Positions 35,846 to 37,057 of a stretch of 44,245 bases of DNA are shown here, in pieces. Numbering within the stretch: the first letter of the stretch is position 1; every line of letters begins with the position of its first letter. The position numbers and the translations under genes were made by a program. The notes beneath the pieces were generated by a model. It had not been told where the DNA came from, searched no databases, and saw only the letters and a program-made list of their open reading frames with translations. Origin of the DNA: Escherichia phage SM_W22. Location of the stretch: the sequence record PP920555.1; one strand, 5' to 3'.

Positions 35846-35893
35846 TGTCTCGTCCTCTAAAAATAGGCCCGCTAATCTGCAGGCCGGAATATA

Positions 35894-36322
35894 TTAATCT
35901 TCCAGTTCGAAATAGGTTTCGACGATTTCTTTTAGCTCTTTGTGGAAGTCTTCGACGTCGTCATCTTCCAGCTTGGCGATTGATTTGATCTCGAACGATT
36001 CCAGCAGGTCGTCGAATTCGTCGTTCGCATCGTCGTCGTCACCACCGGCAATAATCGCGGCATACTGTTTGATCTCGTCGCGCATCTCTGCCAGCGGATC
36101 GGCATCTTTCTTGCCTTTGCCTTTTGCCGGTGCTTTTTTAGACTTAGCCGGTTTTTCGTCTTCAGCTTCATCGTCGTCATCTTCGACAACTTCTTTTTTG
36201 GCCTTAGACGGCTTCTTATCTTCCTGTTTACCAACGGCAGCGCCAACGGTTTCATAATGCTTTGCAATGGTTTCCAGTGCTACTACTCCGCGAGTGATCA
36301 GGTTTACGATTTGCTCAAACAT
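35894..36322 (-). CDS. Acidic early protein (first gene of leftward early operon)
   Basis: Track ORF trimmed to Met at 36322; about 142 aa with long D/E runs interrupted by a K-rich segment. Confidence 0.5.
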   Translation of the reverse strand: MFEQIVNLITRGVVALETIAKHYETVGAAVGKQEDKKPSKAKKEVVEDDDDEAEDEKPAKSKKAPAKGKGKKDADPLAEMRDEIKQYAAIIAGGDDDDANDEFDDLLESFEIKSIAKLEDDDVEDFHKELKEIVETYFELED

Positions 36323-36727
36323 GGTATATCTCCGATTGGTTAAGTTTAGGTGTCGGCAGTTAACTTCGTCGGTGGCCTTAACATATTGCCAGGTTACGCG
36401 TTCTCCCGTTCGGGTAGTGGACCTGGTTATATAATCACGGTTGGGAATCCTGACACTTCGATCCGGCCCCTGCGTTGCCCCTCTCCAGTTTGCGTCCTGC
36501 ATCCTGTCGACGGAGTGAATGATAGATTGGTTGCAGGATGGGTGTCAACAACTAATTTCAAAAAAAAAAAAGCGCCGAGGCAAAATGCACCGGCGCTAAC
36601 CAATAAGAGACAATGAGACGGGAATTATTATTACACGCGTGCGCGCCCGTTTCAATATCCAAAGGATTTGACACCTTGTGGTTTTAGGTGTAGTTTCATT
36701 GGTCATTAACCAACAGGAGACTGAATT
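36323..36727. promoter_or_regulatory. Divergent early control region
   Basis: About 400 bp noncoding between divergent operons; contains TTGACA -35-like hexamer, ATTGGTTGCA motif (36526-36535), A12 tract and hairpin. Confidence 0.45.
36559..36597 (-). terminator. Terminator-like hairpin with 12-A tract (T12 on minus strand)
   Basis: AGCGCCG-13 nt loop-CGGCGCT preceded on plus strand by A12; oriented to stop leftward transcription. Confidence 0.35.
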
Positions 36728-37057
36728 ATGAATATCAAAGAAGCAATTGAAGTGTTATCTAATGCAATCCGCGGCGAAGCGGGTAAATCCTGGTATTACA
36801 CAAATGCGGTGGATACTCTGTTATTTGAAGTGTCCAGATTATCGCGTGCTGAGAAGGAGCTTACCGCGAAGCTGGAATTGCTCAACGGCACGGCAGCAAG
36901 CAAGCTGCAAAAACACAATGAAGAAATGGAAGAATACAAAAAACAGGTTATCCGTCTACGTGAGGAAGGTAAATCCTGGGCGATGATTGCCGAGTTGACC
37001 GGAATTAATCAGAGCACAGTGCGCTCCTGGGTACGCAATAATAAAACTTCTAAGTAA
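36728..37057 (+). CDS. HTH DNA-binding protein (putative transcriptional regulator)
   Basis: 109 aa; C-terminal helix-turn-helix-like segment SWAMIAELTGINQSTVRSWV; first gene of rightward operon; RBS CAGGAGA. Confidence 0.55.
   Translation: MNIKEAIEVLSNAIRGEAGKSWYYTNAVDTLLFEVSRLSRAEKELTAKLELLNGTAASKLQKHNEEMEEYKKQVIRLREEGKSWAMIAELTGINQSTVRSWVRNNKTSK

What the first reader, a model, noticed from the sequence alone, without database searches (positions are those of the whole stretch)
36559..36650. Promoter-proximal terminator with 12-A tract in the early control region
On the minus strand a hairpin (AGCGCCG...CGGCGCT) is followed by T12, oriented to stop leftward transcription, yet it lies about 240 bp upstream of the first leftward early gene, just downstream of a candidate leftward promoter (TTGAAA -35-like, TGTAATAAT extended -10-like). 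This could be an attenuator requiring antitermination, the terminator of a tiny sRNA, or an insulator. The A12/T12 tract is also a slippage-prone homopolymer.
Basis: partly seen in the sequence, partly recalled or inferred. Interest (0 to 1): 0.45.

Follow-up and report, generated by a model that had tools for sequence, protein, structure and literature searches.

The report
Terminator of a tiny phage RNA gene
The hairpin and T12 run are a real, conserved transcription terminator, but it ends a separate ~57-base RNA gene lying between the phage's two early promoters rather than attenuating the early genes, and that RNA could pair with the ribosome-binding sites of the first gene on each side.

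Summary
The window is a Dhillonvirus (HK578-like E. coli siphophage). On the minus strand, a GC-rich hairpin (36597..36572) is followed by T12 (36571..36560) and preceded by TTGAAA-17-TGTAATAAT (36655..36627).

The leftward early genes therefore have their own promoter, and the attenuator reading fails.

The upstream promoter, a 22-nt unstructured tail, the hairpin and the U-tract form a self-contained ~57-nt transcription unit.
- It is present in 154 GenBank Dhillonvirus records.
- Its stem shows compensatory changes.
- The T-tract is 8-13 long.
- The hexamers and tail are invariant, while the discriminator varies.

The tail is complementary to a 15-nt motif, TAACCAAYARGAGAC. This motif covers the Shine-Dalgarno regions of the first rightward gene and, with two mismatches, the first leftward gene.

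My best reading is a small RNA gene, probably an anti-ribosome-binding-site regulator. Its terminator also insulates the leftward promoter, and its T-tract lies at that promoter's UP-element position. Nothing is tested experimentally.

In passing, I found a ~160-nt covariation-supported structured leader RNA (36513..36353). It has no Rfam match and is shared with other phage genera.

The parts
36650..36655 (-). -35 hexamer TTGAAA of the small-RNA promoter (P_s)
   Evidence: Found by the promoter scan. One of 6 columns varies among 18 distinct Dhillonvirus sequences. Annotated as a consensus promoter in the HK578 GenBank record.
36627..36635 (-). Extended -10 TGTAATAAT of P_s (hexamer AATAAT 36632..36627)
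   Evidence: One search reports a TG before the -10. None of the 9 columns varies.
36620..36626 (-). Discriminator between the -10 and the predicted start site; it is variable and contains indels
   Evidence: Six of 7 columns vary. The 1-nt indels here also rule out the 24-codon + strand ORF.
36560..36619 (-). Predicted small RNA of about 57 nt. The start at G36619 or C36620 is inferred from the -10 position and from where conservation begins. The 3' end lies within the U-tract.
   Evidence: The start site is an inference and has not been mapped.
36598..36619 (-). Single-stranded 5' tail GUCUCAUUGUCUCUUAUUGGUU (candidate seed)
   Evidence: Unpaired in the minimum-free-energy and centroid folds. 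One of 21 columns varies. The 10-nt core CUCAUUGUCU is retained in the divergent L016.
36572..36597 (-). Terminator stem-loop: an outer GC stem of 7-8 bp, an internal loop, and a 3-bp apical stem
   Evidence: Folds. Compensatory changes GCGCCG/CGGCGC -> TCCCCG/CGGGGA in L004 and L136, and ATCCCCAG/CTGGGGAT in L016. Annotated as a terminator in the CS16 and WF5505 records.
36560..36571 (-). T12 tract: the terminator U-tail, which also lies at about -48..-59 of the leftward promoter P_L (UP-element position)
   Evidence: It is the only homopolymer of 9 or more in the window. Its length is 8-13 in relatives. The UP-element role is an inference from position.
36519..36548 (-). Leftward early promoter P_L: TTGACA (36548..36543), 18 bp, TATCAT (36524..36519)
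   Evidence: Matches 11 of 12 positions in the scan. Conserved in all loci including L016. Annotated as a promoter in HK578.
36707..36721 (+). TAACCAACAGGAGAC: the Shine-Dalgarno region of the first rightward gene (ATG 36728) and a candidate target of the RNA tail
   Evidence: Motif search, direct repeat D2, and duplex dG -17.9.
36328..36342 (-). TAACCAATCGGAGAT: the Shine-Dalgarno region of the first leftward gene (ATG 36322) and the second candidate target
   Evidence: Third copy of the motif, inverted repeats I1 and I2, and duplex dG -17.9.
36668..36696 (+). Rightward early promoter P_R: TTGACA (36668-36673), 17 bp, TAGTTT (36691-36696). It lies back-to-back with P_s and overlaps the inverted repeat ACACCT-N9-AGGTGT.
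   Evidence: Read. The equivalent site is annotated in HK578 and scanned there as TTGACA-17-TAGTAT.
36353..36513 (-). Context: the structured leader RNA at the 5' end of the P_L transcript.
   Evidence: Covariance model hit of 99.8 bits, E = 1.9e-18. Covariation counts.

Best explanation
The hairpin plus T12 is a genuine Rho-independent terminator. Together with the conserved sigma-70 promoter about 60 nt upstream (TTGAAA-17-TGTAATAAT), it forms a self-contained gene for a ~57-nt RNA. That RNA has a 22-nt unstructured 5' tail, then the terminator hairpin, then a U-tail.

The unit is wedged between the divergent early promoters P_R and P_L of a Dhillonvirus. It is not a leader of the leftward genes, which are served by their own near-consensus promoter starting 11 bp past the T-tract.

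**Shown by sequence and comparison**
- the promoter-like elements;
- the terminator structure and its covariation;
- genus-wide conservation;
- the invariant tail.

**Inferred**
- The RNA is actually made.
- Its tail pairs with the 15-nt motif UAACCAAYNRGAGAY, which spans the Shine-Dalgarno sequences of the first rightward gene (an HTH protein) and the first leftward gene. Pairing would block 30S binding and damp translation of both first cistrons as the RNA accumulates.
- The terminator keeps polymerases from P_s from running over P_L.
- The T-tract at -48..-59 doubles as an UP-like element for P_L.
For: **Structure**
- Searches give a free tail plus a hairpin in four lineages, with dG -16 to -20 kcal/mol and z -3.3 to -4.4.

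**Promoters**
- One search finds P_s at 10 of 12 with TG, and P_L at 11 of 12.
- HK578 record annotators flagged the same three promoters.
- Other annotators flagged the terminator.

**Conservation**
- The unit occurs in 154 phage records at 86-100% identity. All belong to the Dhillonvirus group, although a few carry other host names.
- Stem changes are compensatory in L004 and L136. In L016 the stem has an entirely different sequence but the same architecture.
- One search gives the variable columns per segment: tail 1 of 21, -10 plus TGT 0 of 9, -35 1 of 6, discriminator 6 of 7, inter-promoter spacer 8 of 14. This is the pattern expected for a promoter driving a sequence-constrained transcript.
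- L016 keeps a promoter (TTGCGC-17-TATTAT), a 10-nt tail core, a hairpin, T13 and then P_L, although blastn finds no similarity.

**Target complementarity**
- The motif has 3 copies in the window against 0.15 expected. None of 100 shuffles reached 3.
- The two copies outside the RNA gene sit on the Shine-Dalgarno regions of the two flanking first genes, in sense orientation, 5-6 nt before the AUG.
- Duplex dG is -17.9 for each, at the 1.2 percentile of all genome windows.
- The rightward gene's translation-initiation region (TIR) ranks first of 58 annotated TIRs in Teewinot.
- Complementarity recurs in most lineages, with shuffle p from 0.003 to 0.04. It is near perfect in WF5505 (-23.1).
- L016's different tail pairs with its own leftward TIR (-19.6, p = 0.017).
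Against: - No transcript data exist. I found no Dhillonvirus transcriptome or start-site study, so promoter activity and the RNA itself are predictions.
- Duplex energies are only moderately unusual. About 1% of random genome windows score as well, and the margin over other TIRs is small.
- Pairing is weak in the L004/L136 lineage (p = 0.24 and 0.06-0.08). It is also weak for the replaced first rightward gene of HK578-type phages (p = 0.08-0.23) and for L016's rightward TIR (p = 0.12).
- The tail never varies while the rightward TIR does, so there is no true covariation between RNA and target.
- Part of the complementarity is generic pairing of a C/U-rich tail with purine-rich Shine-Dalgarno sequences.
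- YAACCAAY upstream of the Shine-Dalgarno sequence also occurs after the leader RNA in phages not known to carry this RNA. The motif may therefore have another role.
- In L016 the T-run lies 20 nt from the -35 rather than 11 nt, so an UP-element role for the T-tract is not a conserved requirement.
- Host targets could not be searched.
Confidence: 0.6

Rival explanations
1. Pure insulator and promoter accessory. The terminator exists only to stop leftward polymerases from the back-to-back promoter P_s, or from antisense transcription of the rightward operon, before they run over P_L. Its T-tract serves as P_L's UP element. The short RNA is a by-product with no sequence-specific role.
For: - The terminator ends 11 bp upstream of the -35 of a near-consensus promoter.
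- The T-tract occupies -48..-59. A/T tracts there are known to stimulate sigma-70 promoters through alpha-CTD (own knowledge of UP elements).
- A preprint listed reports widespread promoter-terminator coupling in bacteria. I saw only the start of its abstract; the paper could not be opened.
- Target complementarity is statistically modest.
Against: - This does not explain why the 22-nt tail is the most conserved non-hexamer segment of the whole control region (1 of 21 variable columns), more so than P_L's own hexamers.
- It does not explain why a promoter that needs insulating is itself conserved in all 154 genomes.
- In L016 the T-run is displaced by 9 bp relative to P_L.
Confidence: 0.2
2. 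A DNA-level element. The three copies of TAACCAAYARGAGAC are binding sites for a phage or host protein (operators, iterons, or origin-associated sites next to the helicase-primase gene). The A12 tract acts as a bend or unwinding element. The hairpin is incidental or forms a cruciform.
For: - The motif is repeated.
- The region sits at the divergent switch, where cumulative GC skew has a local minimum.
- The first rightward gene encodes an HTH protein.
- Cornellvirus-like relatives carry direct repeats and an A-run plus hairpin just upstream of the helicase-primase gene.
Against: - Two of the three copies coincide exactly with Shine-Dalgarno regions in sense orientation, 5-6 nt before the AUG. 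That geometry fits RNA, not DNA.
- The stem changes keep base pairing rather than sequence.
- The skew minimum is equally explained by the switch in transcription direction.
- A different inverted repeat, ACACCT-N9-AGGTGT over P_R, is the more obvious operator.
Confidence: 0.1
3. Attenuator. P_s is the early leftward promoter, and the terminator is a promoter-proximal stop that must be overcome by an antitermination factor before the leftward genes are expressed, as at lambda P_R'-tR'.
For: - The terminator lies between P_s and the leftward genes.
- The phage has no RNA polymerase of its own in the annotated relative, so it depends on host polymerase.
- The leftward operon does contain at least one further terminator-like site, at 35885..35866.
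Against: - A stronger promoter (11 of 12) lies between the terminator and the genes and is conserved everywhere.
- The 22-nt tail offers no alternative fold that competes with the terminator.
- A perfect U8-U13 tract with a GC stem is a strong constitutive terminator design.
Confidence: 0.05

Closest known systems
Rho-independent (intrinsic) terminators
   Same: A GC-rich stem-loop is followed directly by a long U-tract. It acts in one direction only, since there is no T-run on the other side. Pairing is kept through compensatory changes.
   Different: Nothing unusual apart from the tract length (12 here, 8-13 in relatives) and the position: about 57 nt from one promoter and 11 bp before the next.
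Small antisense RNAs of phage control regions: P22 Sar and lambda OOP (own knowledge)
   Same: These are short RNAs of about 60-80 nt, each with its own constitutive promoter and a strong terminator. They are encoded inside a phage regulatory region. Sar masks the ribosome-binding site of a neighbouring gene.
   Different: Sar and OOP are cis-antisense and overlap their targets. This RNA gene does not overlap either candidate target: the motif copies lie 110 nt away (rightward gene) and about 270 nt away (leftward gene). Complementarity comes from a repeated 15-nt motif. The host phage is virulent-type and encodes no integrase in the annotated relative.
Hfq-dependent trans-acting sRNAs, including phage-encoded ones (for example the lambda sRNA described in bioRxiv 10.1101/2024.10.31.621285, seen by title and abstract start only)
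   Same: A conserved single-stranded seed, an A/U-rich stretch next to a terminator hairpin, and a poly-U tail of 8 or more. Imperfect pairing of 14 of 15 positions across a Shine-Dalgarno sequence.
   Different: Hfq binding is untested. No Rfam family matches; the best hits score 13-24 bits against gathering thresholds of 43-72. There is no homologue in E. coli genomes. The candidate targets are phage genes rather than host genes.
Lambda P_R'-tR' (6S RNA) promoter-proximal termination with Q antitermination (own knowledge)
   Same: A short terminated transcript is made from a constitutive phage promoter.
   Different: Here an independent promoter follows the terminator, so downstream genes do not depend on read-through.
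UP elements and terminator-promoter coupling
   Same: A T-tract followed by AAATTAG spans about -59 to -38 of P_L. This is the region contacted by alpha-CTD at UP-element promoters (own knowledge).
   Different: This rests on position only. The spacing is not kept in L016 and there is no functional test.

Membership tests
Rho-independent terminator | Stable GC-rich stem-loop in the transcript | tested here: met
   dG -16.9 kcal/mol, z = -3.25. The outer stem has 7-8 bp, 6 of them G-C.
Rho-independent terminator | U-rich tract immediately 3' of the stem | tested here: met
   U12 starts at the last stem position. It is at least 8 long in all relatives.
Rho-independent terminator | Pairing maintained in evolution | tested here: met
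   Two double (compensatory) changes in L004 and L136. The stem sequence is wholly replaced in L016 with the same architecture.
Rho-independent terminator | Termination demonstrated in vivo or in vitro | not testable with these tools
   No transcript 3'-end data were found.
Sigma-70 promoter (P_s) | -35 and -10 hexamers at 16-18 bp spacing, with an optional TG extension | tested here: met
   TTGAAA-17-AATAAT, 10 of 12, with TG present.
Sigma-70 promoter (P_s) | Hexamers conserved while the spacer and discriminator drift | tested here: met
   Variable columns: -10 plus TGT 0 of 9, -35 1 of 6, spacer 4 of 14, discriminator 6 of 7.
Sigma-70 promoter (P_s) | Mapped transcription start | not testable with these tools
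   No 5'-end data. The start at 36619 or 36620 is inferred.
Transcription attenuator / antitermination-controlled leader | The terminator is the only route from the promoter to the regulated genes, with no promoter in between | tested here: not met
   TTGACA-18-TATCAT (11 of 12) lies between the terminator and the genes and is conserved.
Transcription attenuator / antitermination-controlled leader | Alternative antiterminator fold, leader peptide, or factor-binding site upstream of the terminator | tested here: not met
   The tail is unpaired in the minimum-free-energy and centroid folds. No conserved ORF is present, because indels shift the frame.
Trans-acting base-pairing sRNA (Hfq type) | Independent promoter plus an intrinsic terminator with a long poly-U | tested here: met
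Trans-acting base-pairing sRNA (Hfq type) | Conserved single-stranded seed | tested here: met
   One of 21 tail columns varies. The tail is unpaired. A 10-nt core is kept in L016.
Trans-acting base-pairing sRNA (Hfq type) | Complementarity to target mRNAs at functional sites, beyond chance | tested here: inconclusive
   The motif has 3 copies against 0.15 expected, and both extra copies lie on Shine-Dalgarno regions. However, the duplex energies are only at the 1.2 percentile, pairing is weak in some lineages, and there is no RNA-target covariation.
Trans-acting base-pairing sRNA (Hfq type) | Hfq (or other chaperone) binding and a regulatory effect | not testable with these tools
   This needs co-immunoprecipitation, RIL-seq and reporter fusions.
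Cis-antisense RNA (Sar/OOP type) | The RNA gene overlaps its target gene on the opposite strand | tested here: not met
   The RNA spans 36619..36560. The rightward mRNA is predicted to start near 36702 and the leftward mRNA near 36512. There is no overlap.
UP element of P_L | A/T-rich tract at about -40 to -60 | tested here: met
   T12 lies at -48..-59 and AAATTAG at -46..-40.
UP element of P_L | Position conserved, with alpha-CTD-dependent stimulation | tested here: inconclusive
   The spacing is kept within Dhillonvirus but shifted by 9 bp in L016. Stimulation is not testable here.

The most novel reading that the evidence does not exclude
A virulent-type siphophage carries a trans-acting 'anti-ribosome-binding-site' small RNA. 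It appears to have arisen from a duplicated copy of the first rightward gene's translation-initiation region, read from the opposite strand. With a single 15-nt seed it represses translation of the first cistron of both divergent early operons. Together with the newly recognised ~160-nt structured leader on the leftward mRNA, this would make the early switch of these phages largely RNA-based.
Probability: 0.3. Interest if true: 0.65.

Novelty: new member of a known kind. Interest (0 to 1): 0.45.

Why it matters
Dhillonviruses are common E. coli phages. They appear in the BASEL collection and in many phage-therapy isolates, yet I found no transcript map for them. If the ~57-nt RNA is real, it would be a simple example of a virulent-type phage using one small RNA to set the translation level or timing of the first genes on both arms of its early region.

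There are practical consequences as well.
- Genome annotators currently place spurious ORFs over this region.
- Anyone engineering these phages should avoid breaking the terminator/promoter composite.
- The corrected anatomy (three promoters, one terminator, one structured leader) explains the long "empty" 400-bp intergenic region.

Tried and rejected
- **Rfam.** The control region gave only sub-threshold, terminator-driven hits: L20_leader at 23.8 bits against a gathering score of 58.7, and STnc480, ncS54 and VrrA lower still. I rejected these. There is no tRNA or tmRNA.
- **Other sequence collections.** blastn of the RNA unit against E. coli genomes gave no match. Against phages it matched only the Dhillonvirus group.
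- **Perfect complementarity within the phage.** Only three 9-mers were found, against roughly 6 expected from my own estimate. This is not informative.
- **A + strand 24-codon ORF starting at ATG 36613 behind the motif copy.** Rejected, because 1-nt indels in the discriminator shift its frame in several relatives and no rightward promoter precedes it.
- **Relatives of the divergent locus L016 in GenBank.** None found.
- **Literature.** Searches for Dhillonvirus transcription data and for the sequences themselves gave nothing usable. The promoter-terminator coupling preprint could not be opened. A paper on Hfq and phages does not mention these phages.
- **Formal pair counting on the terminator hairpin.** MAFFT could not place L016 in register, because its loop differs by one base. 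Hairpin covariation is therefore reported from direct reading.
- **RNAalifold on a MAFFT alignment of the leader.** It missed the covarying helices. A hand-drawn structure with covariance-model realignment was needed.
- **A 16-mer scan of bacterial genomes.** It gave about 120 chance hits. Of the 100 loci searched with the model, only one matched, and that is a sortkaff-like phage contig inside a MAG.
- **GC skew.** The minimum at the locus is confounded by the switch in transcription direction.

Full report
**What the window is.** The control region matches Escherichia phage vB_EcoD_Teewinot at 99.3% identity and about 190 other phage records. The window is a Dhillonvirus, an HK578-like siphophage of E. 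coli of about 44 kb. Genes run rightward from about 36.7 kb through the end of the window and on to about 24 kb. They run leftward from about 36.3 kb down to about 24 kb. The finding therefore lies in the roughly 400-bp divergent early control region. This region separates a leftward gene (ATG 36322, 142 aa, no Pfam hit) from a rightward gene (ATG 36728, 109 aa, HTH_23/Sigma70_r4_2-like). The rightward gene is followed by the helicase-primase gene.

**Checking the observation.**
- A12 lies at 36560-36571 on the + strand.
- The stem arms are 36572-36577 and 36591-36596.
- On the minus strand this gives AGCGCCGGUGCAUUUUGCCUCGGCGCU followed by U12.
- The predicted RNA folds as a free 5' tail plus this hairpin, with dG -16.9 kcal/mol and z -2.6 to -3.25.
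- The scan finds TTGAAA-17-AATAAT with an upstream TG at 36655..36627.
- A12 is the only homopolymer of 9 or more in 44 kb, against an iid expectation of 0.0014 for 12 or more.

Its -35 begins 11 bp after the T-tract.

**Comparative evidence that the terminator is real.** I collected 18 distinct Dhillonvirus versions of the region from IMG/VR and GenBank, plus one very divergent relative, L016, whose intergenic DNA has no blastn similarity.
- All carry the hairpin followed by a T-run of 8-12; L016 has 13.
- In L004 and L136 the stem GCGCCG/CGGCGC becomes TCCCCG/CGGGGA, two positions changed on both sides.
- In L016 the stem is ATCCCCAG/CTGGGGAT. The architecture is the same: outer stem, small internal loop, 3-bp apical stem and U-rich loop.
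- Two independent GenBank annotations already mark a terminator here (CS16, WF5505).
- The HK578 record marks all three promoters by consensus.

**Why this is not an attenuator.** The leftward genes have their own conserved promoter downstream of the terminator. The 22-nt segment between the predicted start and the hairpin has no competing fold. It has no conserved ORF either.

**Why this looks like a small RNA gene.** Variation among the 18 sequences is not uniform.

| Segment | Variable columns |
|---|---|
| P_s extended -10 (TGT + hexamer) | 0 of 9 |
| P_s -35 | 1 of 6 |
| P_s spacer | 4 of 14 |
| Discriminator (36620-36626) | 6 of 7, with indels |
| Tail (36619 down to 36599) | 1 of 21 |
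| DNA between the P_s and P_R -35 boxes | 8 of 14 |
| Rightward 5' UTR | 25 of 30 |

- Conservation that resumes where transcription should begin is the signature of a promoter driving a sequence-constrained transcript.
- The tail GUCUCAUUGUCUCUUAUUGGUU is the most conserved non-hexamer segment of the region.
- L016 keeps the same layout: TTGCGC-17-TATTAT, a tail sharing the 10-nt core CUCAUUGUCU, a hairpin, T13, then P_L.
- The unit occurs in 154 GenBank records. All belong to the Dhillonvirus group, although a few carry other host names. It is absent from E. coli genomes.
- No Rfam family matches.

**A candidate function.**
- The + strand of the tail region reads TAACCAATAAGAGAC (36597-36611).
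- A search for TAACCAAYARGAGAC with up to 2 mismatches finds three copies in the window, against 0.15 expected. None of 100 shuffles reached three.
- The other two copies are TAACCAACAGGAGAC (36707-36721, + strand) and TAACCAATCGGAGAT (36342..36328, minus strand). Each lies in sense orientation over the Shine-Dalgarno sequence of a first gene, rightward and leftward respectively, and ends 5-6 nt before the AUG.
- The RNA tail can therefore pair with 14 of 15 positions of each translation-initiation region (TIR). dG is -17.9 for both, at the 1.2 percentile of all 55-nt windows of the genome.
- The rightward TIR ranks first of 58 annotated TIRs in Teewinot.
- The pairing recurs in most lineages, with shuffle p between 0.003 and 0.04, and is essentially perfect in WF5505 (-23.1).
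- L016's different tail, which contains ACUCCU, pairs with its own leftward TIR (-19.6, p = 0.017).
- Two adjacent direct repeats, of 15 and 12 nt, suggest an origin for the RNA gene: a duplicated copy of the rightward TIR, now transcribed from the opposite strand.

**Limits of the functional inference.**
- The energies are only moderately unusual.
- Pairing is weak in the L004/L136 lineage, in HK578-type phages whose first rightward gene has been replaced, and for L016's rightward TIR.
- The tail is invariant, so RNA-target covariation cannot be shown.
- No perfect complement longer than 9 nt exists in the phage.
- Host targets could not be screened.

The existence of the small transcription unit is therefore well supported. 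Its mode of action is a reasoned hypothesis.

**Secondary roles.**
- A terminator 11 bp before P_L would prevent polymerases from P_s running across P_L.
- Taking the P_L start as 36512, the T-tract covers -48..-59 and AAATTAG covers -46..-40. This is the zone of UP elements (own knowledge).
- The spacing is kept within the genus but not in L016, so I treat the UP role as plausible but secondary.

**Rivals.** Four alternatives are listed with scores: a pure insulator with a by-product RNA, a DNA-level protein-binding or origin element, the attenuator, and chance.
- The DNA-level idea draws some support from the repeats, from the skew minimum, and from similar A-run/hairpin/direct-repeat arrangements upstream of the helicase-primase gene in Cornellvirus-like relatives.
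- Against it, the Shine-Dalgarno-centred sense-strand geometry fits RNA.

**Side finding.** Directly downstream of P_L, the leftward mRNA begins with a ~160-nt element (36513..36353).
- It is missing from some Dhillonviruses, where 12 nt replace it.
- It is present at 77-94% identity, over part of its length, in unrelated phages:
  - Drexlerviridae (slyngel, Motto and others);
  - Murrayvirus Lumpael;
  - Sortsnevirus sortkaff;
  - Serratia phage MQ-4.
- In each locus examined it directly follows a -10-like hexamer and precedes a same-strand gene by 20-40 nt.
- A covariance model finds exactly one copy per genome. The window copy scores 99.8 bits, E = 1.9e-18.
- On the model-guided alignment, 94% of cells pair, against 21-41% when partners are slid.
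- 14 of 30 pairs show compensatory double changes, and one long helix shows only GC-to-GU changes, which points to RNA on this strand. This alignment was fitted to the structure, which favours it.
- It has no Rfam match and its core sequence strings are not in the searched literature.
- Its function is unknown. A put-like cis antiterminator, a riboswitch or a 5' stabiliser are candidates.

**Verdict.** The feature is an ordinary terminator by mechanism. Its context is a conserved ~57-nt RNA gene between three early promoters, with complementarity to both flanking ribosome-binding sites. That makes it a plausible new member of the class of phage regulatory small RNAs. It needs a Northern blot or start-site map to settle.

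Noticed in passing
window 36353-36513 (minus strand): A ~160-nt structured RNA lies at the very 5' end of the leftward early transcript. It is an indel polymorphism within Dhillonvirus. It is also shared with Drexlerviridae, Murrayvirus, Sortsnevirus and uncultured phage contigs, in each locus examined right after a -10 box and just before a gene. Covariation is strong: 14 of 30 pairs carry double changes, and 94% of cells pair against 21-41% when partners are slid. There is no Rfam 15 match, and the single hit in bacterial genomes is a phage contig. See.
   Followed up: partly
window 36671-36691 (+ strand): The inverted repeat ACACCT-N9-AGGTGT overlaps the -35 and spacer of the rightward promoter P_R. 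The first rightward gene (36728-37057) encodes an HTH_23/Sigma70_r4_2-like protein, so this may be its operator. The protein is variously annotated as 'transposase' or 'resolvase' in GenBank.
   Followed up: no
window 35894-36502 (minus strand): The long 202-aa ORF, used as the gene model in Teewinot and some other records, starts inside the structured leader. The conserved start is ATG 36322 (MFEQ..., with GGAGA 6 nt upstream). It aligns with the start in leader-less relatives and in L016. Small 'hypothetical protein' calls over 36558-36706 in some records also look spurious.
   Followed up: partly
L155-L162, L134 (Cornellvirus-like relatives), about 100-125 nt upstream of the helicase-primase start: A leftward-facing hairpin plus T8-10, with a covarying stem, sits upstream of the helicase-primase gene. 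Next to it lies a conserved CCUACCUCUGC, and a roughly 23-nt direct repeat of the helicase 5' UTR lies inside the putative leftward unit. Predicted duplexes with the helicase TIR are -23 to -35 kcal/mol. No scan-grade leftward promoter was found, so this could be operators rather than a second anti-TIR RNA.
   Followed up: partly
window 35866-35885 (minus strand): A terminator-like hairpin, GGCCTGCAGATTAGCGGGCC followed by TATTTTT, lies just after the first leftward gene and before the next one. Read-through of it would be needed for the downstream leftward replication genes. This is relevant to a possible antitermination role for the leader RNA.
   Followed up: no
L165 (slyngel) and L167 (Lumpael), about 60-70 nt upstream of their leader copies: The sequences TAGCACTTTTTGTTAAAAC and TAGCACGAATTGCTAAAGC match the 21-nt direct repeat aaATAGCACnnnTTGnTAAAA. 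That repeat is reported at 21 sites in phage TLS (PMC11447400), where its role is undefined. Here it lies upstream of the -10 box that precedes the leader.
   Followed up: no
L243 (contig QFQS01000013.1, labelled 'MAG: Cereibacter sphaeroides', 42,764 bp): This contig carries a leader copy whose covariance-model score (208.4 bits) equals that of phage sortkaff. The contig has the length of such a phage genome, so it is probably a phage contig binned into a bacterial MAG.
   Followed up: no
sortkaff, Lumpael and L177 TIRs downstream of their leader copies (L168, L167, L177): YAACCA(A/G)(C/A) precedes the Shine-Dalgarno sequence of the gene after the leader in these unrelated phages as well. The sequences seen are UCAACCAACC and UUAACCAGAC. 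The AACCAA part of the Dhillonvirus motif may therefore have a role, as a translation enhancer or a partner of the leader, that is independent of the small RNA.
   Followed up: no
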